The notes beneath the pieces were generated by a model, which saw nothing but the letters and a program-made list of their open reading frames with translations, was not told the DNA's origin and searched no databases. A DNA stretch of 64,000 bases. Source: Octopus vulgaris. Lineage: Eukaryota. Location: NCBI GenBank assembly GCA_951406725.2, contig OX597826.1, positions 41,230,001 to 41,294,000 on the forward strand, given 5' to 3'. The position numbers and the translations under genes are program-made. This document shows, piece by piece, positions 7,600 to 64,000 of the stretch (position 1 is the first letter of the stretch; each line of letters begins with the position of its first letter).

Positions 7600-7800
7600 C
7601 CCACTTCAGTTGAGGGTTCTTGTCTTGCAAGTTACCTGGTGACTTCACCAGTGCCATGTAAAAGACATCCATTACACTGTAAAGTGGTTGGCATTGGGAA
7701 GGGCATCCAGCTGCAGACATTGGAGCTTGGCACAGTTTTATGGCTCATTGGTTCCTATCAATCCATACAGTCCATGCCAGCATGTGAAACATGAGTGATG
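7600..7800 (+). mobile_element. Old RTE-type 3' tail fragment
   Basis: GTGGTTGGCATTGGGAAGGGCATCCAGCTG motif shared with the RTE 3' ends in this window. Confidence 0.6.
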
Positions 7801-7905
7801 ATTGTGCATGTGTGTGTGTATTTAACGACTCTTACACAATTAAAAAAATATTGCTGTTGCAATCTTATTTTTTTTTTCATGGAATTTCAATTTGTTTTTT
7901 CATAG

Positions 7906-8099
7906 AAACTGATGACGACGACGATGATGTTACGAAAGGTGTTTGTGACAAAGTCAGCCTTTTAGAAGATGAATCTTCTGATCAAGGAGATGGTGATGAT
8001 TGTCCAATTTGTTTAAATCGGTTAAAATATCAAGATATTGGAACTCCAGAATCTTGCGATCACAGTTTTTGTTTAGATTGTATTCAACTTTGGGCCAGG
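7906..8099 (+). CDS. PHRF1: PHRF1-like exon 3, RING finger N-part (CPICLNRLKYQDIGTPESCDHSFCLDCIQLWAR)
   Basis: C3HC4 RING signature; catag| acceptor and AGG|GTGAGT donor. Confidence 0.95.
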
Positions 8100-8694
8100 G
8101 TGAGTTACTGGACAGCTTTATTTGATCCTCTCCAAATTCTGAATTTCTATCCGCTGTAATAGTGCTTTCTTCTTGTCTTTAGTCTATAAAAGAATATTTT
8201 CTTGAATAAATGTGTTGAAGAACAGTGGATCTTTTTTATGTAAGAAAATTGTTTCATAAATTGGTTTCTCTTTTCAGTTAAAACTGTTTTGCATCATTGA
8301 AATATGGTGCAAACATTTTTGTGAGAAAGGAATGTAACAGAATAGGACCTGTTACTATGATATAATCTGTAATATTCTCTTGTTGTACATAGGTGGGTGT
8401 TAAATATGGAATGAAACTGAATACGTAATTGAATGTTTCAACATAGCAAGCAAAACATTGTTATAAAAGTTATAAATAAAACATTTATAGAATATGTAAT
8501 TTCCATGAGTGTCGCTTGTTATAACCATATTGTGAAGTTTCAAAGTAGAAGAAACTCTGTTATTTAAATCAATATGTAGAAGAGGTGTTTTCACTGATTT
8601 GGACATGTGTAAATACATGATACTGGGTGAGGTAAGTGTTGTGTGTTTACTTGGAAGTTCCCTTGAAATAAGTATATATACATATATATATGCC

Positions 8695-9132
8695 CGTGCC
8701 TGACTGGCACCCATGCTGGTGATACATAAAAAATACCATTCAAGCGTTGCTGATGCCAGTGCCACCTGACTGGCTCCCATGCTGGTGCCACCATTTGAGC
8801 GTGGCTGATACCAGTGCTTCTTGACTGGCACCCATGCCGGTAGCATGTAAAAAGCACCATTTGAGCATGACCAATACCAGTACTGCCTGACTGGCACCTG
8901 TTCCGGTGGCATAGAAGAAGCACCGTTTGAGCATGGTCGATGCCAGTGCCGGTGGTGCATAAAAAGCATCCACTACACCCTTGGAGTGGTTGGTGCTAGG
9001 AAGGGCATCCATCTGTAGAAACCTTGCCAAATCAGATTGGAACCCGGTACAGCCTCCTGGCTTGCCAGTCCTCAGTCAAACTGTCCAATCCATGCCAACA
9101 TGGAAAGTGGACGTTAAATGATAATGATGATA
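8695..9132 (+). mobile_element. 5'-truncated RTE LINE 3' UTR with ~5 hairpin repeat units
   Basis: Repeated GCCAGT...ACTGGC...TAAAAAGCACC units, then the GGAAGGGCATCC motif and (GAT)n tail. Confidence 0.85.
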
Positions 9133-15020: not shown

Positions 15021-15625
15021 GTTTTTGTTTTATCTATGTCTAATATATAATTGATATTTGAAGTGAAGATTGCCATTGGCAGTCATTAAAGTGCAGGCTT
15101 AACTGATGATCTGTAGTTGATTTTTAGACACATATAGCCAATTGACTCCAGAGTACTACTGCTACCTAATCAGTATTTGGTCTATATAGCTATCTAATTA
15201 AGAAGGTTGCTTTTCATGCATGTGGATTCAGGTTTGATCCTACTACAAGACCTCAGATAAGTGTCTTCTATTCTAGCTTTGGAAAAGTGGATGTAAAAAT
15301 GATATATATGCGAGAGAGAGAGAGAGAGAGACAGTGTGTGTGCATCTGTTGTAAACTGGTGTGATGAGCTGAAGAGGTTGGTGTTAGGAAGGACATCCAG
15401 CTGTAGAAACCATGATAAATAGCCATTTAGAGCTTGGTGCAGCCATCTGGTTTATCAGTTCATGTTGAACCATCGAACATGTCAGCTTGATGATTGAAAA
15501 AAATTATTTTTAATTTGTAGGGAGTGGGGTCAGGTATATTGAGATGGATGTATAAAACTATTTTATTTAAATGTAATGATCCTTTTCCTTTTTGTTTTTT
15601 CTTTTTTTATCTTCCCTTCCACTAG

Positions 15626-17148: not shown

Positions 17149-18592
17149 GTATGTGAGACTTCTAAAATTAACCCTTGACTCCTTTTATGTCTTCTCAGAT
17201 CGTACACTCTGCCCTTTATAAATTATTCTAAATTAAATGAATCAAAACTAGGCATTTTCCTCTGTAAATATACATCTAACAACCCAGTGCTACTATCGCG
17301 ACCCTATAATTAAATACTGATCAAGCATAATTTACTGACTTCATTCACGTGTTAATTATTAGTTGAATTAGTAAAGGTTTCTAAGGATTAATTGTACTGT
17401 CACATAGTTGTTGATGGCCTCCAGCCCTGACTTGCACCCTTAAGAGATCATTTCAGTTTTAAATTCCATTACCTTTCTGCACATAGATACCAAAGAAGAC
17501 TCTAAAATCATGAAGTATGTTTGACTTTGGTGACAGCCTATAGTTAAGACACCTTTATAAAATTTAGTCCTTAGTGCTGTTAAGAATATACACACACACA
17601 CACAGTTATTTTTTCCATTCACAATATTGATATTGAATAGATCCTATAGCAAATTGGGTGGGTGGTTGATGCAACTAATGTAAATATTTTCTACATACAA
17701 AGCTTTTTAAACTAAGCACTGTATGATAATACTTGTTAATTTCACAGCACTTCTGTTGGCTGAACTACTGTTATGATACCTATTTATAGTTCAGTGGACT
17801 TAGCCAGTGGTAGATTTTTGTATATACTTAATATATAACTGAGTGCTGTTTAAAATCATGGGAGGTGTTTATATTTTAATGTATATTGCATACTCAATTA
17901 CAGTAAGCTTTATGTTTATTACTAAGAGCTTTTTGTAGTTAATTTCACTTGAACATAGTGTAGACATAAATATCACTGTTTATATTTTCATTATGATTCA
18001 TGATTGTTTGATAAAACTGTCATTCTTGTTTATACCAATCTTCAATTTTATGTACTGTAACTTATGATACCAAATCAAACAAGGAATCGATTATTGGCCT
18101 GTATCATACACTATCATAATGGAAGAAAAGACCTTTGCTTAATTGTTCTCCTATCACTGATCATTTATAAATAATTCCTTGAATAGTAAAAAATATTTTT
18201 ATTCAAATCTTAGGTATCAAGGTCATTACATTAGTGACAAAGATACAAACCCTTCAGCAAGGAGGCCTGCATCGTGTTAACTTATTGGCTAAAACTTTGT
18301 TTCCTTGTAACTTATCAAAATAATTCATATTTTTGCACATGCAAAAGAATCAACCAAATTATTTGCTATTTTAATTTTTTGTTTAGGAGCTGATTTTCTG
18401 GGATGTCCTTTCTATCTCTATACTATCTTTTCATTGGTTTAATCTCTGACCCTAAATGTAGATGTAAATATTGAAATATCTCTTGAGATAGGGCTAATGG
18501 TGTGAAAAAGGTCTATCTGTGATTATTTACTTTCATGTTTAAAATTTTGTTGAACAAGAATTCTTTTTAAATGATGCACTCTTCTTTTTTAG

Positions 18593-21500
18593 GTTCATTG
18601 ACTGCCAAGAAGCCAGTTCCTGTCAGTGTAGAAGAATGCCAAAGCAAACCTTCACAGTTGCATTTTGATTACTCAACATCTAAAGAAGATGAAAATTCCA
18701 AAATCCAGGTGGATAATGATTCTGAAAAGAATCTAGAATCTCCTGAGGAGGAAAATTCTACCACTTCTGTTGCAAGTCCTCAGAGTAAAAATGATCATGA
18801 ACTTGAAAAGATTCATAACAGTTCTAGTGAATCAAAAGAGGAAAGATCTCCTGTAGCATCTGGTGAGAGTGAACCAGAGGCAAAGGTATCCGAACCAGAA
18901 GAAGAAGAAGAAGTAGAGACGGAATGTTCCGAAACTGTTGATGAAAATCTTGCTTGTGTAAATGAGGAAGAGGAAGCGGAAGAAGAGGAGGGTGAAAAAG
19001 AAGAGGAGGAAGATGAAAGGGAGGAGGACATGGGTGAGGAGGAAGAATGTAAAGGAAATGTCAGCGATGACACTAAAATTAATAACAATAACAACAACAA
19101 AAGTGTTGGAGATGAAAGTCAGGAAGAAACAGAAGACAGTTCACAGGATGGTGTGTTAGATGCAGCAACGGTGAGTAATAACTCAGATGGTGAGGATATC
19201 AAGAGTGCTTCACCAGATACAGAAATGAACAGCCAACTATACAAGAGTGATGACAGCTGTGCTGCGGAGAACAATAAGGAAATTACTGAACCAGAAATGG
19301 AAAATACGTATGATCCAATACTAGAAGAGAAAACTATTTCCGAGGTGGATTCTGTTGGCTTCAGTCCTGAACTTGATCTGGAACAACAGAGTGAAGCTGA
19401 GGATACAGCTCCTATTAAGGAAGGAGAGTCAAGTTGTGAAGATGCTTCTTCTGTGAATGTTGACAGTGAGAGAAATAAAGTAGAATCTGAAAGTATTGGT
19501 GAACAGCAAGAGGACAGTGATGAAGATGAGGGCTGTCCTGATGAGGTGGACAAATCAGACAAGGAAGAAGACGCGAAACAAACTGGTGAAACTTCAGATA
19601 TTGAAGACAATATTAAATCAGCTGAGGAAGATGTTGATGAGGAAGTGCCTGAGGAAGAGTGTAAATTTGATACAGAAGATGACAATGCTCAGAAGGAGAG
19701 CACTGTTGATGAATTAGAGTCATCAGTTGATTTTGACAAAGCTGATAGTCATAAGGACCTTGCTGCCGACGATCAACCTTCAAAAGAAATGTCTCCGCTA
19801 GACAACTTTGAGAAATCTGAATCTGTGAGGGATGAGGAATCTGATGAAAATGTCGACTCTGGAGTTGCAGGAGAGAATTTAGTATCTGATGAACCAACTT
19901 CTAAGAAGTTTGAGATTATTGAAGAAATGTCAGACCATTTTGATGATGCAACATCTACAAATATGACTGATTTAGAAAAAGTTTATCAAGAAAGTTCTGA
20001 AAACTATGAAGAAACCAATGAAATGGTAGAGAAAGAAGCATCTGGCAGTGAGAGTGAGGCCAGTTCTGTTGCAGAGGGTGAGAGAGAAGGGGATAAACCC
20101 AAAGTACCAATTTCTGAGCTACCAAGGATCCCTAAGAGAAGTCGAAGGGAATTGTATAAACGGGAGAAATCATCCAGAAGTGATGGTCCTGAGTTGAAGA
20201 GTGTTCTTGGAAGAGTAGACATGTCTGATTATAAAATGAAACGAGGCTGGGGAAAGAAAGATCGTAAAAGTCGGTGGGATCCTGATGACTGGAATCAATC
20301 GGAAAGGGATCTTGATTTTATCAGTAGCCGAGACCGTAAGTCAGATGGAAATAAAAGTTACCATTCAGATCGTTCTGAAAGTAGTCACGAGAGTGAAAAA
20401 TATGGCTTTGAGTACAAAGAATCAAGATCTCGGAAGAAACGACATGATATTTCTCGAAGTCACTCAAAAAGCCATAAAGAAAGTACAGTAGATTACAGAG
20501 ACATTCCACACTGTCGTTATTCTCCAGAGAAATCCAAAACCCGAAAACGAGAGCGTAGTCGTAACCACAGTCGCTCATGTTCTCGGGATAAAGTCTTTGA
20601 TTATGACAAATCAAGCAAGAGAAAGAGTAGAGGGCGTAGCAGGGACAAAAGTCCCGGCAGAAAGTCCAAAAGACATCGCTCTTACTCTAGAAGCCCATCA
20701 CGTAAATCTCATAAAGACAGAGGTTTGAGTGATAAAAGGCGGCACAGAGATGAACGCAAGAGAGTTGAAGACCGTGTCCATAAGCGATATTCTGACAGAT
20801 TGGAATATGAAGAGAAAAAAAATAGACATCACCCAGAAGAATTTGAGGAGTGGGATGATGGTTCTTGCCAAGTTATTGATTATCCTGTAGAACAAAATGA
20901 ATCCCCTCCAACAACTAAATCAGAGCGAAGCAAAAAATCCTCTGACCGTTTCTATAAAACTTCTCCAAATGATAAAGTAAGTGAAAATTTCTTTGAAAAA
21001 AGACCGTCACAAGAAAGAAGTGCTTTTAAAGGAAATAAGGTAGATGATACAGGGCATTTCTACAATGCACGCTCAACAACTAAAAAGCAAAAATTTGTTG
21101 ATCGCTTTTATAAAGCTCCGCATCTCCGAGATGCTGGTACAGAAAAATTCCCAATTCATCTGTCTGAAGATGAAACTGAAGCTGAGCCAACTGCCAGCAA
21201 ACCTGAGACCGAGGAAGTCCAGAAGAGCAATGATGATGAAAATCAAGTGAAAGAAAATGAAACTGACAGTGGAAATAGTGAGTATGATCCTGCATTCCCA
21301 ACAGAGTCAGGAAGTCCAATGCGACGCGAAGCGGCTCCACAATTGCTTGAAAAAGTTGAGGAAGAGAGCACACCAGCTTTGTCTGAATCTGAAAGTAGTT
21401 CTGCACCTTGCGCAACTATTGAAGACACTTCACCTACTTGCACACAGGCTGTTGTAGCAAGTGACCCTCCATTCATACTCCAAGAAAACCCCAGTGTACA

Positions 21501-22830
21501 AAATCTTCCAGTGCAATCCCAGAACATTACATTTCCTATGGGACTTCGAATGATGCCCCCCAATATGCCTCAGCATCTGATGATGAACCCCATGTTTTTA
21601 AGTCGCCCTCCTCCATTCGGTAGGTTACCTCGTATGGCTGGACCTGTAAATCGAATGGGTTGGCCCATGAATCCTTCAGGAATGATGCAGTTACCTCCCA
21701 ATCGTTTTGGACCAGCACGTATGGGTCCTGGTGGTGCAATGCCTCCAAGGCCGGGTCTACTCAATGGAGGGTTTGAGAGCATGTCTCAAGAACCTGGGCA
21801 ACCTATGTCTTCTTTCAAGCAACACCCATGTGACCCCAGACACCTTCCTTCCCAAAGCCACTCGCCTGGACAAATTTCTCGCACTGGCCTTCCCACCCCA
21901 CCCAATATATCACACATACCTCCTCCTGGGCCTTTGCTCACACAGCAGCACCCTCCTCCTCCCCCTCCAACCTCACAAATGCATATGCCCCTACCCACCA
22001 CATCACTTGCAACGACATCGTCTCAATCTCTGAACTTGGAATTAGACGATGGTCAAAGCCCAGCCTCAGTTCACTTGCCACAGCACCAGCAACAGAGTCT
22101 TGGCACGATAGGGATTAGCAAAGCTCAACCGTCCTCTGAAAAGTCTCTGCCACCAAATTTCATTGTACCTGAAATGAATCAGTTAACAAAACTGCTTGAA
22201 GCCCAGGCACAACTGGCAATGTTAGCTGAAGACGGCAGCAAGAGCGAGGGCAAGCAGAGGAACAAACAGCCGTCTATCTCTCAGAACAGTGATATTGATG
22301 TTTTTAAAATTCCCTTGCCTCCCATGGCCCCACCCACTATACCACCTCCAGCTTTAGCATTACAGTTAATGCCACCCCCAGATTCTCTTACTTTCTCTAC
22401 TAACACCACTTCTACTACTAACAATTCTGTTACTACCAATACATTTAGTAATAGTAATAGTAGTAGTAACAATATCAGTAGCAGCAACAACAACAACAAC
22501 AGCAGCAGTGGTGGTGGCGGTGGCAGCAGCAGTAGTAGCAGCAGCAACACTACCAGTAATAATGTAAAAGTCTATAAAAGCCATCAATTGAAATTATCGA
22601 ACAGCCACAGGTCATCAGAACCACCATCAGAGTCAACGGAAGTGGTGGACATGGATGTTGCTTCACCCCTTGATGATGATGTTGAAATTGAATTGCCTGC
22701 ATCACCAGAACTTGATGATATTGATGACAGTAAGCTGAGTTCCAAAGACTCTTCTGTAATAGAATTGTCTGTAGTTGAAGATATGCCTGCATCTGCAGTG
22801 GAATTGACCAATTTAACCAACAAAGAAAAG
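18593..22830 (+). CDS. PHRF1: PHRF1-like exon 12, 4238-nt exon encoding acidic, RS/K-rich, Pro/Met-rich and Ser/Asn-rich low-complexity regions
   Basis: Lies within the 1466-aa ORF; tttag|GT acceptor continues RDG-SL; AAG|GTAGGT donor follows SAVELTNLTNKEK. Confidence 0.95.
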
Positions 22831-23046
22831 GTAGGTACTCCTCTTTTTATCTTGCAATTAACATGTTTTCTTCTTCTTCCTCCTCCACCTCCTCCTCTCT
22901 CTCTCTCCATTGTTACAGGTGAAAAAAAGTCAGTTATCACCTGTTTATTGTGGTTTTTAAACCTGTTTTAATTTTAAGTGAGGTATGAATGAAACAAATT
23001 TCTCAGAAAGAACCAAAACAAAAAACTGAAGATTTGGGATTATTTA

Positions 23047-24660: not shown

Positions 24661-25479
24661 ATAAAAAGTTCATAAAGGACTGTTACAGTTAAGAATTTGC
24701 AATTGTAGTGAATATTGATGTCTTATATTGATTTCACAAGTTTGTAGAGATGGAGTTGGGGTGAAGAAATTTAGTCTTTAATTTTGACTGGAGCTATTAA
24801 AAGGAAGCCAACTCAAAGTAATTTGAACTCAGAGCATTTGTTAGTTGTGGTAAGTGCAACTAAACACTGTCATTCAAGCTAGTATTCACTATTGTTTTGT
24901 CAGTCCACCCTTGAGCCACTGTAATATTAGTTACTGACAGCAATATTGCTTCTCTCTTGTCAATCCACTCTTTTCAGCCACTGTAATATTAGTAACAATA
25001 GACAATATTATGTTACTCCCTTACACAACCAACAATAATAGTAATTGTAAGTGCAAGTTTTCCATATATATATATGCCAGCTATTGCCATGCAGATCTTA
25101 CAATTTTCAGATTGTTATATTGGTAATGTTAGCTGTTAATGCCATAGTAGGAAAGTCTCAATAAGCTTGTAATTCTTTGTCCTAATTTCATTTCCTGGTT
25201 GGAGCTATTTCTGTTTTCAAGTGATGTGTGAGTGTTTTGAACTTGTAGGTGTTGTCTGTTGTCATTTCCTTGTCAATAAATTGTCTAGTAGGTCTGAAAT
25301 TCCAAAGACAAGCAGAATGAAAATTCCCCAGTTTGAAAAACAGGTAAGGATTAGTGGCAGGAAGGGCATCTGGCTGTAGTGTAACAATGCCTTAATAATG
25401 TGTGTTTGTGTGTGTGTGTGTGTGTATAACCTGTGCTAGTTTGGGAACATGGATGTAAAACAAACAAGGTGAACAGATA

Positions 25480-25685
25480 TCATCATCGTCTGCTTTCCAT
25501 GCTAGCATGCGTTGGACGTTTTGACTGAAGACTGGCGAACCAGATGGCTGCACCAGGCTCCAGTCTGATCTGGCAAAGTTTCTACAGCTGGATGTCCTTC
25601 CTAATGCCAACCACTCTGAGTGTAGTGGGTGCTTTTACGTGCCACCGGCACAAGGGCCAGTCTCGGGTGGTACTGGCAACGGCCT
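25480..25685 (-). mobile_element. RTE LINE 3' tail (one hairpin unit)
   Basis: (CAT)n...GCTTTCCATGCTAGCATG...CTTCCTAATGCCAACC...CTTTTACGTGCCACCGGC. Confidence 0.85.
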
Positions 25686-25884
25686 ATGAGCATAAGCATG
25701 TCTGAATGGCTAAGTAGTTTTCTTGCAACTATGAGGTCCCAGGTTTGATCCCACTTCAGGTTATTTGAAGCAAGTGTATTTTCCATAGCACGGAATTGTG
25801 AATCTAAGTTGGCAGGGGCTGTATTGAAGCCTGCCAGAAGGATTGTATTTTGGAATTTAAAGTCCAGCCTTGTCATGAGTCACC

Positions 25885-26268
25885 ACCACCATGATCGTTT
25901 TAATGACCACTTTTCCACACTCAGATGGAATTTGTTGAAATGGATTACCTATGGCTGGATGCCCTTCCTGTTGCCAACTCATGTTTCCAAGAGTAATATT
26001 TCCCCATGACCAGACATATTATTCTAGAATATTGGAAATAGACACTTTACATGAGTGACATTTGTTTACAACCATCATGCAGTGTTAAGGCATAGAAATA
26101 GTAACACAGACAAACAGGCTTCTTTCAGTTTCTGTCTACCAAATCCACTCACAATGCTGTGATCAGCCTGGGGCTATAGAAAACACTTGCCTAAGGTAGC
26201 ATACAGTGGGATTGAACCCCAAATCATATGATTGGGAAGTAAACTTCTTACCACACAAACTTGTGCCC
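25885..26268 (-). mobile_element. SINE A-like head joined to an RTE-like tail (degenerate)
   Basis: Reverse SINE A head at ~26115-26268; GGATGCCCTTCCTGTTGCCAAC motif at ~25957. Confidence 0.55.
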
Positions 26269-39844: not shown

Positions 39845-41312
39845 CAACATATTGGACGGTTTGACTGAGGTTTGGAGAGCCAGTAGCTGCACAAGGCTCC
39901 AATCTGATCCAGCAACATTTCTACAGCTGGATGCCCTTAATGCCAACCACTCCAAGAGTGTAGTGGGTGCTTCTTACGTGCCACCAGTGCAAGAGGCAGG
40001 CCTGGCATTGACCATGTTTGGATGGTGCTTTTTACGTGCCAATGGCACAGGAGCCAGTCAAGGGACACTGGCATCGACCATGTTCAAATGATGCCACTGG
40101 GAGCCAGTGGATGGTGCTTTTTATGTGCCACGGGAACATGAGCCAGTCAGGGGGCACTGCCCACAGCTATGATTTTGGTTTTACTTGACTCAACAGGTCT
40201 ACTGAAGCATATCATATTGCCTGACGCATCAAGGGTACTCTTAAATGGGCCAGACATGAAATACTGGCATCGGCCATGGCTGTGATTTCTTTTTAGTTGT
40301 CGGGTCTTCTCATTCACAGCATATCTTCAAATGTCTTGATCTCCTGTCATTGCCTTTGTGAAGCCCATGCTTCGTCATCTCATTCCATGTCTTCCTCGCT
40401 TTACCTCTTCCACAGTTAGGGAGTGGCACTTCCTCACACAGCTGTCCTCATCCATATGTAACACATGAGCATACCAGCACAGTCGTCTCTCTTGTACACC
40501 ACCTCTGATGCTTCTTATGTCCAACTTTTCTCTCAGGGCACTTACACTCTGTCGTGTATGCACACTGACATTACACATCCAGCAGATCATGCTAGCTTCG
40601 TTTCTTTCAAGCCTACGCATGTCCTCAGTAGTCATGGCCCATGTTTCACTGCTGTGTAGCATGGCAGTTTGCATACATGCATTAGTTGCCAGCAGAGGTA
40701 GGAGCTCCCTGAACTTTGCCCAGGCTACTCTTATTCTAGTCACTACACACTCAGAGCAATCACCTCCACTACAGACTCGGTCACCTAGGCAGCGGAAGCT
40801 ATTAACTACTTCTACTTTTTCTCCCTGGCATGTGATGGAATCTGTTTTCTGTACATCTTTAGTGTTTATTGCCCCTGTGCATCTGCCACATACAAAAACT
40901 ATCTTCCCAGTTAACCTTCCTTTGATATTGCTGCACCATTTTTATGTCCATAACTTTCACTGGGTACATCGTATGGAGTTTCTACCAATATCTTTTCTAC
41001 AAATTGGGCAGGGCCATCTACCTAATGGGGTTTGTGATTTGTCAGCCTTCCTACTTAATAAGACTTAGGTTTTTGCTAGGTTAACCCTAAGACCTTTCGA
41101 TTCTAGACCTTGCTTCCACACCCTAAACTTCGTCTCTAGTTCTGGCAGTGACTCATCTATTAGAGCAAAGTCATCAGCTTAGAGGAGCTCCCAGGGGCAG
41201 CCTATCTTGAATTCCTCTGTTATTGCCTGGAGGACTATAATGAAGAAGAGGGGCTGAAGACTGATGCTTGGTAAACCCTTGCTTCTACCTGGAATTCTTC
41301 ACTATACTCAAT
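39845..41312 (-). mobile_element. 5'-truncated, inactivated RTE LINE (RT core, Cys-rich insert, C-terminus, 3' UTR)
   Basis: Minus-strand SPLLFIIVLQAITEEF...PWELL*ADDFAL (YADD with stop), RIRVAWAKFRELLPLL, LHSSETWA, ERRLCWYAHV; 3' UTR hairpin units and tail at 39845-40165. Confidence 0.92.
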
Positions 41313-43177: not shown

Positions 43178-43400
43178 ATCATCATCATCGTTTAACGACC
43201 GCTTTCCATGCTAGCATGGGTTGGACGGTTCAACTGGGGTCTGGCAAGCCCGAAGGCTGCACCAGGCCAGTCAGATCTGGCAGTGTTTCTACAGCTGGAT
43301 GCCTTCCTAACGCCAACCACTCCGAGAGTGTAGTGGGTGATTTTATGTGCCACCGACACAGGTGCCAGATGAGGCTGGCAGATGGCCACGCTCGGATGTT
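43178..43400 (-). mobile_element. RTE LINE 3' tail (one hairpin unit)
   Basis: Aligns with 62481-62700. Confidence 0.85.
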
Positions 43401-43587
43401 AATATTTTCAACTGAGACATTACAGTCATATCTGATTGTTCCAGTGCTTCAAATGTGTATAGGTACATTTATTTACTTGATTGCTGACATTTATCAATGA
43501 TTTCTCCCATTGTTTTGATGATACAGCTATGCTAGTATATAGCTTTTTATGTCCATATAGTTCCCTCTCTCAGTATATATATATACA

Positions 43588-48285: not shown

Positions 48286-48605
48286 CCGTGTCGGTGGCAC
48301 GTAAAAAGCACCATCCGAATCGTGGCCGAAGCCAGTGCCGCCTCGACTGGCTTCCGTGCAGGTGGCACGTAAAATGCACCAATCCGACCTTGGCCGATGC
48401 CAGCCTCGCCTGGCACCAGTGCAGGTGGCACATAAAAAGCACCCACTACACTCACGGAGTGGTTGGCGTTAGGAAGGGCATCCAGCTGTAGAAACATTGC
48501 CAGATAAGACCGGAGCCTGGTGCAGCCTTCTGGCTTCCCAGATCCCCGGTCGAACCGTCCAACCCATGCTAGCATGGAGAACGGATGTTAAACGATGATG
48601 ATGAT
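48286..48605 (+). mobile_element. RTE LINE 3' UTR with 2-3 hairpin units
   Basis: GGTGGCAC(G/A)TAAAA.GCACC occurs three times, then the conserved tail and (GAT)n. Confidence 0.88.
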
Positions 48606-51029: not shown

Positions 51030-51440
51030 GTACCATGTAAAAAGCATCTAGCACACTGTAAAGTGGCTGGTGTTAGGAAGGGCATCTAGCTGTAGAAACT
51101 AGACTGGAACCTGGTGCAGCTCTCCAATTTGCCAGCTCTTATCAAACTGTCCAACCCATGCCAGAATGGAAAATGGTGGCGAGCTGGCAGAAGCGACAAC
51201 ACGCCGGGCAAAATGCTTAGCAGTATTTCGTCTGCTGCTATGTTCTGAGTTCAAATTCCGCCGAGGTCGACTTTGCCTTTCATCCTTTTGGGGTTGATTA
51301 AATAAGTACCAGTTACGCACTGGGGTCGATATAATCGACTTAATCCGTTTGTCTGTCCTTGTTTGTCCCCTGTGTGTGTAGCCCCTTGTGGGCAGTAAAG
51401 AAATAAAAATGGAAAATGGATGTTAAATGATGATGATGTA
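51030..51440 (+). mobile_element. RTE tail interrupted by a SINE B copy (51177-51407)
   Basis: Target duplication AATGGAAAATGG at 51165-51176 and 51408-51419; the RTE tail resumes after it. Confidence 0.88.
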
Positions 51441-54592: not shown

Positions 54593-54975
54593 CATCATCA
54601 TCATCATTTAGCGTCTGCTTTCCATGCTAGCATGGGTTGGATGGTTCAACTGGGGTCTGGGAAGCCAGAAGGCTGCACCAGGCCCAGTCTGATCTGGCAA
54701 TGTTTCTACGGCTGGATGCCCTTCCTAACGCCAACCACTCCGGGAGTGTAGTGGGTGCTTTTACGTGTCACTGGCACAGGTGCCAGACGAGGCTGGCAAA
54801 TGGCCACGATCGGATGGTGCATTTTACGTGCCACCAGCACGGAGGCCAGGCAAGGCTGTCAACGGCCACGATCGGATGGTGCTTTTTACGTACCACCGGC
54901 ATGAAGCAAGTTGGGGCAGCGCTGGCAACGGCCACGTTTGGATGGTTCTCTTATGTACCACCGGCTTTGGTATCA
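54593..54975 (-). mobile_element. RTE LINE 3' UTR with 3-4 hairpin units
   Basis: (CAT)n tail, conserved 3' motif, and repeated TTTTACGTG.CAC...GCCAG...CTGGC...CCACG units. Confidence 0.9.
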
Positions 54976-55043
54976 CAGCTGCAATTTCCATTGATGTTGA
55001 TCGATTTTGATTTTGATTTTTTGATAAATGTTCAAAGCAGTAC

Positions 55044-58510: not shown

Positions 58511-58701
58511 TGCCGGTGGCACGAAAAAAGCACCCACTACACTCACGGAGTGGTTGGCGTTAGGAAGGGGCATCCAGTCGTAGAAACATTGCTAGATCAG
58601 ACTGGGCCTGGTGCAGCCTTCTGGCTTCCCAGTCCCCAGTTGAACCGTCCAACCCATGCTAGCATGGAAAGCGGATGCTAAACGATGATGATGATGATGA
58701 T
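58511..58701 (+). mobile_element. RTE LINE 3' tail
   Basis: Near-exact reverse complement of 54593-54775. Confidence 0.9.
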
Positions 58702-62290: not shown

Positions 62291-62480
62291 CTGAAAAAGA
62301 ATTTCAAAATAGAAAAATATTGTAGTAAAAAGTCGTCCATTCCAAAAGGTTTTACTATAAACTCTCACAGAAATCATAAACAACTTCTTGTTTACTCAAA
62401 ACATATTTTATTGAACGTTAAATTCAACTTTCGTAGTCTGCTTTAGAAGCATTATCCTGCGTTTGAGAATAAATTTCCTT

Positions 62481-64000
62481 ATCATCATCATTTAGCGTCC
62501 GTTTTCCATGCTAGCATGGGTTGGACGGTTCAACTGGGGTCTGTGAAGCTGGAAGGCTTCGTCAGGCCCAGTTAGATCTGGCAGTGTTTCTACGGCTGGA
62601 TGCCCTTCCTAACGCCAACCACTCCGTGAGTGTAGTGGGTGTTTTTTACGTGCCACCTGCACAGGTGCCAGACAGAGCTGGCAAACGGCCACGAACGGAT
62701 GGTACTTTTACGTGCCACCGACATGGGGCCAGACAGAGCTGGCAAACGGCCACGAACGGATGGTGCTTTTACGTGCCACCGACACGGGGCCAGACAAAGC
62801 TGGCAAACGGCCACGAACGGACGGTGCTTTTACGTGTCACCGGCACGGGGGCCAGCCGAGGCTGGCAACGGACACGAACGTGTGGTGCTTTTATGAGCCA
62901 CCGACACAGGGCCAGACAGAGCTGGCAAACGGCCACGAACGGACGGTGCTTTTACGTGTCACCGGCACGGGGGCCAGCCGAGGCTGGCAACGGACACGAA
63001 CGGATGGTGCTTTTACGTGCCACCGACACGGGGCCAGACAGAGCTGGCAAACAGCCACGAACGGACGGTGCTTTTACGTGTCACCGGCACGGGGGCCAGG
63101 CGAGGCTGGCAACAGACACGAACGGATGGTGCTTTTACGTGCCATTGACACGGGGGCCAGACAGAGCTGGCAAACGGCCACGAACGGATGGTGCTTTTAC
63201 GTGTCACCGGCACGGGGGCCAGGCGAGGCTGGCAACAGACACGAACGGATGGTGCTTTTACGTGCCATTGACACGGGGGCCAGACAGAGCTGGCAAACGG
63301 CCACGAACGGATGGTGCTTTTACGTGTCACCAGCACGGGCCAGGCGAGGCTGGCAATGGACACGAACGGATGGTGCTTTTACGTGCCACCGACATGGGGG
63401 CCAGACAGAGCTGGCAAACGGCCACGAGCGAATGGTGCTTTTACGTATCACCGACACGGGTGCCAGATGAGGCTGGCAGCGGACACGAACGGATGGTTCA
63501 CTTAACCCCTGCTTTCTGATATATAATTTGATTTTGATTGTTCTCACTGGTCTTGCCAGGTCTTCTGACGCACAGCATACTTCCATAGGTCTCGGTCTCT
63601 GGTCATTTCCTTGGTGAGACCTAGAGTTCGAAGGTCGTGCTTCACCACCTCGACCCAAGTTTTCCTGGGTCTACCTCTTCCACAGGTCCCCTCAACTGCC
63701 AGGGTGTGGCACTTTTTCACACACCTATCTTCATCCATTCTCACCACATGACCATACCAGCGCAATCGTCTCTCTTGCACACAACATCTGATGCCTCTTG
63801 GGTCCAACTTTTCTCTCAAGGTACTTACACTCTGTCGACTATGAACACTGACATTACACATCCAATGGAGCATACTAGCTTCATTTCTTGCGAGCTTACG
63901 CAAATCCTCAGCAGTCACAGCCCAAGTTTCACTACCATGTAGCATGGCTGTATGTACACATGCATCATACAGTCTGCCTTTTACTTTGAGCGAGAGGCCT
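62481..64000 (-). mobile_element. Young-looking RTE LINE (ORF2 C-terminus, stop at 63544, and expanded 3' UTR); continues beyond the window
   Basis: MLHGSETWAV...ERRLRWYGHVVRM...GRGRPRKTW...TRDRDLWKYAV is an RTE ORF2 C-terminus without stops; (GAT)n 3' end at 62481. Confidence 0.93.
62641..63497. repeat. Tandem array of 14 GC-rich ~61-bp units in the RTE 3' UTR, order AAA(BA)5B
   Basis: A = GCTTTTACGTGCCACCGACACGGGGCCAGACAGAGCTGGCAAACGGCCACGAACGGATGGT; B = GCTTTTACGTGTCACCGGCACGGGGGCCAGGCGAGGCTGGCAACGGACACGAACGGATGGT. Confidence 0.95.

What the first reader, a model, noticed from the sequence alone, without database searches (positions are those of the whole stretch)
62641..63497. Expandable array of 14 hairpin modules with A/B dimer structure in an RTE retrotransposon 3' UTR
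Seen: 14 units of ~61 bp lie between the ORF2 stop (63544) and the conserved 3' tail, in the order AAA then alternating B/A, i.e. a ~122-bp higher-order dimer. Each unit folds into a long hairpin with an invariant inner stem GCCAG/CTGGC around a variable loop. The outer stem changes on both sides together (B: CGTGTC/GACACG; A: CGTGCC/GGCCACG), and units are joined by a constant linker (TAAAAGCACCATCCGTT on the element strand). Other copies in the window carry 0.5 to ~5 units (58511, 43178, 25480, 48286, 54593, 8695), some with a longer GCCAGT/ACTGGC stem. Inference: the fold is being maintained and the module number is variable, suggesting an RNA element (multivalent ORF2 binding, localisation/stability signal, ADAR or Dicer substrate) rather than a neutral minisatellite. 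RTE-class LINE expression has been reported in octopus brain, which makes the question relevant.
Basis: partly seen in the sequence, partly recalled or inferred. Interest (0 to 1): 0.72.

Follow-up and report, generated by a model that had tools for sequence, protein, structure and literature searches.

The report
Repeated RNA knots in LINE tail
A very common jumping gene in this genome ends in a variable run of 61-base repeats, each likely folding into a small hairpin plus an RNA knot that sits before the start codon in relatives, while the 14-unit length of this dead copy likely comes from ordinary repeat slippage.

Summary
The 14-unit A/B array is real. It lies in the 3' UTR of a 2.1-kb, 5'-truncated RTE-like LINE. 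Young sister copies carry 5-14 units, mostly 9-11, derived from one ~11-unit source by whole-unit loss or gain; longer arrays duplicated locally. The proposed long hairpin is weakly supported: its 'compensation' is one G.G-to-U-A event, and 16 of 21 unit types have G.G there. A better fit is the inner GCCAG/CTGGC hairpin plus a compact pseudoknot with an A-rich loop: 6 of 357 stem cells deviate versus 118 of 462 others, and three pairs change on both sides across families. In other animals the tail's core lies in the 5' UTR of related LINEs, 20-35 nt before the start codon, with the knot beside it in two families. So the module likely came from an RTE leader and is kept by selection on source elements; unit number looks like slippage. 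The family is not the brain-expressed RTE-2_OV. Folding and function are untested. The scan noted this motif before on other DNA of this genome.

The parts
63544..64000 (-). 3' end of the LINE reading frame (stop at 63544-63546); the copy runs 600 nt past the window edge and is 5'-truncated inside the RT domain (357 aa open: RT end plus PHD-like insert)
63498..63543 (-). spacer between stop codon and array, specific to the young subfamily
62636..63497 (-). array of 14 units (B1 A2 B3 A4 B5 A6 B7 A8 B9 A10 B11 A12 A13 A14); each = linker + GCCAG/CTGGC hairpin + predicted pseudoknot; 9 of 14 keep both knot stems (read by eye)
63125..63309 (-). units 4-6: units 4 and 6 share a two-base variant that breaks knot stem 2 and is in none of 56 other young loci, marking a local dimer duplication
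62638..62663 (-). terminal predicted H-type pseudoknot: stem 1 62663-62660 with 62652-62649; stem 2 62657-62654 with 62641-62638; A-rich loop 62648-62642
62621..62637 (-). short variable hairpin between knot and core
   Evidence: read from the alignment
62586..62620 (-). conserved core hairpin plus A-rich run; found in other animals in the 5' UTR of related LINEs, just before the start codon
62481..62585 (-). 3' end of the element with (GAT)n tail; no target-site duplication found
54597..55010 (-). older copy with spacer and complete array of about 3 units
39852..40941 (-). old decayed copy with ORF end and about 3 units
48286..48602 (+). copy 5'-truncated inside the array (2.4 units)
8695..9128 (+). 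old copy 5'-truncated inside the array (about 4 units)
43181..43401 (-). copy 5'-truncated after one unit
25479..25698 (-). copy 5'-truncated within the last unit
58511..58692 (+). copy 5'-truncated at the start of the terminal knot

Best explanation
The array is the 3' UTR of a dead, 5'-truncated copy of an abundant RTE-like LINE; each 61-base unit is predicted to fold as a short hairpin plus a compact pseudoknot that likely came from an RTE 5' leader and likely serves as a docking site for the element's own protein, while the unit number and A/B pattern likely arise by repeat slippage. Steps: (1) shown: the tail core lies in 5' UTRs of related LINEs in other animals and is absent from its place in this family's own leader; inferred: an ancestor took a bipartite (leader piece + 3' end) module as its new tail. 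(2) Shown: the knot-bearing part was duplicated in tandem in all subfamilies seen, and stems stay conserved while loops drift; inferred: selection acted on the source elements. (3) Shown: the youngest subfamily has an ~11-unit source with position-specific A and B variants, and copies differ by whole units even with no point change in 300 nt of ORF; inferred: slippage during or soon after reverse transcription. (4) Shown: long arrays, and this one, repeat copy-private mutations mostly at even unit spacing; inferred: later local duplication in DNA. (5) Inferred only: protein docking as the function; one terminal module likely suffices.
For: Array and order. Source array and whole-unit differences; 12 copies with 0 of 300 ORF mismatches carry 6-11 units. 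Private variants shared by 2 or more units: 7 of 7 runs of 17+ units, 4 of 12 of 12-16, 1 of 38 of 11 or fewer; spacing 2 is the commonest, 41 of 90. Stem conservation: 6 of 357 versus 118 of 462 non-CpG cells over 21 types, ratio about 0.07, against 0.57 among rare variants of young copies. Knot pairing in types: stem 1 78 of 84 cells, stem 2 80 of 84. Across families 90.4% of cells pair and 3 pairs change on both sides; in the related octopus family the outer stem-2 pair is A-U in 11 of 13 and G-C in 20 of 21 motifs. Leader origin: 12 of 110 metagenome loci (63 had 400+ nt downstream) have a related endonuclease N-terminus 150-250 nt downstream on the same strand, 0 on the other; in-frame ATG 20-33 nt after the core in 5 of the 12; L190 and the L176 group carry the knot 16-19 nt before the core, as here (18 nt); L229 is a bipartite form with the same 3' end. 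Core missing upstream of the ORF in 23 of 24 own 5' loci.
Against: No experiment on folding or binding. Nested folding gives stem 1 a probability <=0.01 in 12 of 14 units in array context (the program cannot model knots), and z = -1.39. Within the main family no stem pair shows a non-CpG two-sided change among the 21 types. The cross-family alignment is 14 hand-picked rows; its two stem-1 changes come from two non-octopus families that may be one event, and 'pairs changed on both sides' is matched by 92 of 500 shuffles. A predicted fourth compensation failed: the facing base was A in 1 of 30 and T in 25 of 30. The knot descriptor hits only 4 of 106 non-octopus upstream regions against 8 of 530 shuffles, so most core-bearing relatives lack it. 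Types are related, so the conservation counts are not independent. Internal unit types also keep their stems, which a 'terminal module suffices' model explains less well.
Confidence: 0.55

Rival explanations
1. Multivalent RNA element: every unit in the source elements is under selection, and more units give more protein loading, translation or stability, so the jump to ~11 units helped the young subfamily spread.
For: Internal unit types keep stems while loops drift; the youngest subfamily has 9-11 units in 19 of 27 copies against about 1-6 in 20 older complete copies; A and B differences fall at knot loop or junction positions.
Against: Older subfamilies with 1-3 units were also abundant; count does not track divergence; one internal type lost stem 2; the largest expansions are local and after insertion.
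Confidence: 0.25
2. Relocated translation element: the module recruits ribosomes, as its place before the start codon in relatives suggests, and now acts from the 3' UTR as an enhancer.
For: First ATG 20-39 nt after the core in 59 of 110 loci, in frame with the endonuclease in 5 of 12.
Against: It is kept in a non-coding bipartite element (L229); no ORF follows it in this family; no RNA or ribosome data.
Confidence: 0.12
3. Neutral GC-rich minisatellite: stems persist through mutation bias and conversion between quasi-palindromic arms, with no RNA-level function anywhere.
For: z = -1.39; stems already mutate less among rare variants (46 of 8486 versus 99 of 10451); few independent compensations; recurrent deletions between short direct repeats.
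Against: Type-level contrast is about eight times stronger than the rare-variant contrast; layout, loop sequence and spacing are kept with changed stem 1 in other animals.
Confidence: 0.1
4. One reading: the 5' arm pairs with the 3' arm around the inner stem, with A/B compensation.
For: Forms in 6 of 14 isolated units; with a bulge 113 of 126 cells pair and 11 of 21 types pair fully.
Against: In register only 2 of 21 types pair fully; the core U-A is A.A in 2 types; probability <=0.01 in array context; the non-octopus homologues change stem 1 together with its short-range partner.
Confidence: 0.08

Closest known systems
Bipartite RTE derivatives and RTE 5'-UTR domains in SINE bodies (Kojima 2018, PMC5786205, parts 1-3 of 5 read and supplement searched; Kojima 2020, PMC7245038, passages)
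   Same: A conserved piece of RTE 5' UTR joined to an RTE 3' end; the L176 group shares a 15-nt exact stretch with RTE-21_Croc in that supplement, just upstream of the knot (by eye).
   Different: Here the bipartite module is the 3' UTR of a coding LINE and its front part is tandemly amplified; no pseudoknot or array is mentioned in the parts read.
3' stem-loops that stringent LINEs use for template recognition, including the hairpin shared by plant RTE and Au SINEs (PMC6007223, passages)
   Same: Small conserved RNA structure near the 3' end with compensatory changes, proposed as the RT recognition site.
   Different: Those are single hairpins; this is a predicted knot 150 nt from the end, repeated 1-46 times.
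Short tandem arrays inside retrotransposons that expand toward satellites (Vondrak 2020, PMC7004042, abstract only)
   Same: Element-borne array, mostly short, sometimes expanded locally.
   Different: Plant LTR elements; no conserved RNA fold reported in the abstract.
RTE-2_OV, the octopus brain-expressed LINE (Petrosino 2022, PMC9115989, passages and two supplement files in part)
   Same: Single EN-RT ORF, octopus.
   Different: C2H2 finger and microsatellite 3' UTR; 0 of 5 primers match this family; this family has a PHD-like insert.
Vhc subdomain of V-SINEs (Matetovici 2016, PMC4758252, section 11 part 1)
   Same: About 40-nt cross-phylum hairpin with internal loop; the resemblance of our core is recalled, not shown by a call.
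   Different: Not confirmed: no matching text in the supplements searched; the alignments are figures.
Compact H-type pseudoknots with an A-rich minor-groove loop, e.g. luteovirus frameshift knots (recalled)
   Same: 4-5 bp stem 1, 1-2 nt loop 1, 4 bp stem 2, 7-nt A-rich loop 3.
   Different: No slippery site or frame context; no Rfam match.

Membership tests
RTE-clade LINE | One ORF with APE endonuclease and reverse transcriptase | tested here: met
   Exo_endo_phos and RVT_1 in sister copies L032, L043; relatives of about 1050 aa with the same domains
RTE-clade LINE | Short tandem-repeat 3' tail instead of poly(A) | tested here: met
   (GAT)n ends
RTE-clade LINE | RT groups with named RTE elements in a tree | not tested
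   No labelled reference set was on hand; the RTE label rests on architecture and on the 5' UTR match of relatives to an RTE in PMC5786205
RTE-clade LINE | Target-site duplication | tested here: not met
   Longest shared flank word 5 nt at this copy; other copies not checked
RTE-2_OV | Sequence identity to the published element | tested here: not met
   0 of 5 primers within 4 mismatches in 10 loci
Bipartite RTE module | 5' UTR-derived piece joined to an RTE 3' end | tested here: met
   Core upstream of a related ORF start in 12 loci; same 3' end motif in L229
H-type pseudoknot | Two crossing stems with suitable loop lengths | tested here: met
   (sequence level only)
H-type pseudoknot | Independent covariation in both stems | tested here: inconclusive
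   3 pairs from few events; one predicted compensation failed
H-type pseudoknot | Both stems form together in RNA | not testable with these tools
   needs probing or a structure
Known self-cleaving ribozymes and other Rfam families | Match to an Rfam covariance model | tested here: not met
   0 matches at E<=10 for 62400-63600; only two weak miRNA hits below threshold in 10 metagenome loci
V-SINE Vhc domain | Over 78-80% identity to the 39-bp Vhc block | tested here: inconclusive
   Reference sequence not available as text
VNTR / higher-order minisatellite | Whole-unit length variation and local duplication of variants | tested here: met

The most novel reading that the evidence does not exclude
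An RTE lineage moved a pseudoknot module from its leader to its tail and turned it into a tunable, multivalent RNA array: each added knot raises protein loading or translation in cis, and the jump to about 11 alternating A/B units drove the youngest burst of this LINE.
Probability: 0.25. Interest if true: 0.72.

Novelty: new variant of a known kind. Interest (0 to 1): 0.42.

Why it matters
How RTE proteins pick their RNA, and why RTE leader fragments recur in SINE bodies, are open questions. This family offers a natural series (1 to 46 modules, 21 source types, leader versus tail position) in which a predicted RNA fold can be tested directly, and RTE UTRs are being engineered for gene insertion (PMC13708176, passages). 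At roughly 1e5 copies (16 in 400 kb of evenly spaced stretches; rough, clustered) the module is also a large part of this genome's intronic RNA. If number proves neutral, it is still a clean case of a LINE tail seeding minisatellites.

Tried and rejected
Long-hairpin model: rejected as main fold. Progressive gain of units with age: no trend among 20 older complete copies (by eye) and none with divergence in young copies. RT stalling at the structure: 5' truncation points of 52 copies are spread over the unit. A U-A compensation in stem 2, suggested by two loci, failed in 30 loci. Ribozyme identity: no Rfam match. Identity with RTE-2_OV: rejected. Vhc identity: could not be shown (one file each of PMC4758252 and PMC4824008 was not searchable and figures are not held). 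Octopus-type unit arrays upstream of the core in other animals: none. Viral contigs: no relative of the N-terminus. Public runs: 11 of 23 listed hold half or more of the words, under four organism codes; all are short contigs, so they cannot give array length, strand, level or editing; the 3' junction is reached by one contig with only 28 letters inside the element; the ORF end is in two runs only guessed to be RNA. A first regex parse of units mis-split loops and was dropped. In one search some arrays were counted by their longest unbroken run, so a few are undercounted. In one search one type's downstream bases were mis-parsed, which lowers the stem-2 count by one type.

Full report
Observation. 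The array is at 62636-63497 on the minus strand: 14 units of 59-62 nt, period 61 x 14.0 at 82% and period 122 x 7.0 at 92%. On the element strand the order is BABABABABABAAA. The inner inverted repeat occurs 23 times in the window against 0.23 expected.

The element. The frame ending at 63544 continues 600 nt beyond the window and stops at a 5' truncation inside the RT domain; the copy is 2120 nt, has no target-site duplication, and its ORF part is 91-94% identical to 34 of 37 long matches and 97% to two. Longer sister copies encode APE endonuclease, RT and a PHD-like insert in one frame; 1626 relatives were found among 7988 candidates scored, the best at 49-60% identity. Ends are (GAT)n. This is RTE-like architecture; no tree with named RTEs was made. 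It is not RTE-2_OV: that element has a C2H2 finger and a microsatellite 3' UTR (PMC9115989, passages) and 0 of 5 of its primers match 10 loci of this family.

Unit number. A search with the whole stretch returned 30 loci with 10-31 linkers, and one extended locus has 46; that sample favours long arrays. A search with the ORF end only (2512 candidates, 30 loci) is blind to the array: 27 loci reach the tail and carry 5-14 units, 19 of them 9-11. In the 12 arrays printed, position-specific variants line up to an ~11-unit source, and copies differ by whole units. Twelve copies with 0 mismatches in 300 nt of ORF carry 6-11 units; count and divergence are uncorrelated (rho 0.18, p 0.40; 25 of 30 loci, leaving out the window copy, three without tail and one irregular). 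Variants private to one locus recur in two or more of its units in 7 of 7 runs of 17+ units, 4 of 12 of 12-16 and 1 of 38 of 11 or fewer, mostly at even spacing. In the window copy units 4 and 6 share a variant absent from 56 other young loci. In 76 position-sampled copies (window plus 80 ten-kb stretches) 21 arrays are complete, 52 are 5'-truncated and 3 are cut by the stretch; the 20 older complete ones span about 1-6 units.

Which fold. From 946 aligned units, 808 fell into 21 types seen in three or more loci. Across types the inner hairpin pairs in 103 of 105 cells. An alternative uses the same 3' strand locally: stem 1 (4 bp, 78 of 84 cells), a 2-nt loop, stem 2 (4 bp, with the first four bases of the next unit or of the tail, 80 of 84 cells), and a 7-nt A-rich loop, i.e. 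an H-type pseudoknot. The A/B differences fall at its loop and junction positions. Non-CpG stem columns deviate in 6 of 357 cells, other columns in 118 of 462. Among rare variants of 502 young units the same contrast is only 46 of 8486 versus 99 of 10451, so mutation bias alone does not explain it, though types are related and not independent. Against the knot: nested folding of the whole array gives the inner hairpin 0.45-0.98, the outer stem <=0.01 and stem 1 <=0.01 in 12 of 14 units (knots cannot be modelled), and z = -1.39 for 365 nt. In this dead copy 9 of 14 units keep both stems (by eye); in young copies 419 of 502.

Relatives. An older family in the same genome (7277 candidates) has two tandem copies of the whole knot-hairpin-core module; its stem 2 is shifted by one pair and its outer pair is A-U in 11 of 13 and G-C in 20 of 21 motifs. 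A third family has a U.U there (facing A in 1 of 30), so a compensation I predicted failed. Sporadic changes in the main family are uncompensated (27 of 30 keep C). In 12 of 110 distinct loci a related endonuclease N-terminus follows 150-250 nt downstream on the same strand, none on the other; the first ATG lies 20-39 nt after the core in 59 of 110 and an ATG at 20-33 nt is in frame in 5 of the 12. L190 and the L176 group carry the knot layout 16-19 nt before the core, as here (18 nt), with the same loop letters and stem 1 changed on both sides; L223 runs into the ORF start and L229 is bipartite with the same 3' end. But the descriptor hits only 4 of 106 upstream regions against 8 of 530 shuffles. 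On 14 hand-picked rows, 90.4% of knot cells pair (shuffles 81.4%), 3 pairs change on both sides (92 of 500 shuffles reach that), 10 cells (0 of 500); the core hairpin is conserved without two-sided change. The family's own 5' region lacks the core in 23 of 24 loci; the one exception was not examined.

Mechanism. Shown: leader position in relatives, tail position here, tandem amplification, stem conservation, whole-unit variation, local duplication. Inferred: capture of a bipartite leader-plus-end module as the new tail, as described for SINEs by Kojima (PMC5786205, parts 1-3 of 5; PMC7245038, passages); selection on source elements; slippage at or after insertion. Least certain: function. I favour docking of the element's own protein, because the module sits near the 3' end and is kept in a non-coding bipartite element; multivalent action of all units (0.25) and a translation role (0.12) remain open, as does neutrality (0.10).

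Prior knowledge. No Rfam match. Ten full-text searches, chiefly, listed no paper that, by title or abstract start, describes this array or knot; Repbase and Dfam could not be searched and may hold the consensus. PMC13282606 (part 1 of 3) counts 13 recently active RTE families in Octopus vulgaris and, in the part read, does not describe their UTRs. The likeness of the core to the Vhc block (PMC4758252, section 11 part 1) is recalled; supplement searches found no text to test it, and unsearched files or figures may bear on it. Earlier notes of this scan reached the same knot and leader-origin reading on other pieces of this genome. I had noted both before that look-up; the notes are not independent support, and they prompted.

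Verdict. Real feature, new variant of a known kind. The module is the interesting part; the 14-unit A/B form at this locus is most likely a by-product. Interest 0.42.

Noticed in passing
window 18571-22971 (+) and 7788-8159 (+): A 1466-aa exon-like frame (acidic, RS-rich, Pro-rich; no Pfam hit) and a RING-finger exon, probably one host gene (SCAF11/PHRF1-like, recalled).
   Followed up: partly
L041 (G000:C1:7827500-7837499): Another subfamily's ORF end plus array is itself repeated three times in tandem; units have a 7-bp inner stem, a mismatch in stem 1, and a recurrent 15-nt deletion between short direct repeats.
   Followed up: partly
G000:C10:117773520-117774612 and L295: The 5' UTR of this family also forms tandem repeats (74-bp array; about 150-bp repeats).
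   Followed up: no
G000:C2:178612445-178612967: Six matches at 100-bp spacing, i.e. a tandem array of the whole module of the older related family.
   Followed up: no
L123:293-352 (-), L124:9032-9091 (-), L115:409-474 (+): Two-sided changes in the inner hairpin (A-U to G-C in two loci; G-C to A-U in one unit) that fell below the three-locus cut-off for types.
   Followed up: partly
L058 (G000:C2:180000001-180010000): Copies cluster: 6 tails in this 10-kb stretch while most evenly spaced stretches have none.
   Followed up: no
window 25949-25978 (-), 15373-15410 (+), 51062-51176 (+), 7642-7720 (+): Other repeat families that share only the tail core or the core plus 3' end.
   Followed up: partly
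L192, L260, L274 (metagenome loci): The same core follows a tRNA-like head, i.e. it is also a SINE body in other animals (by eye).
   Followed up: no
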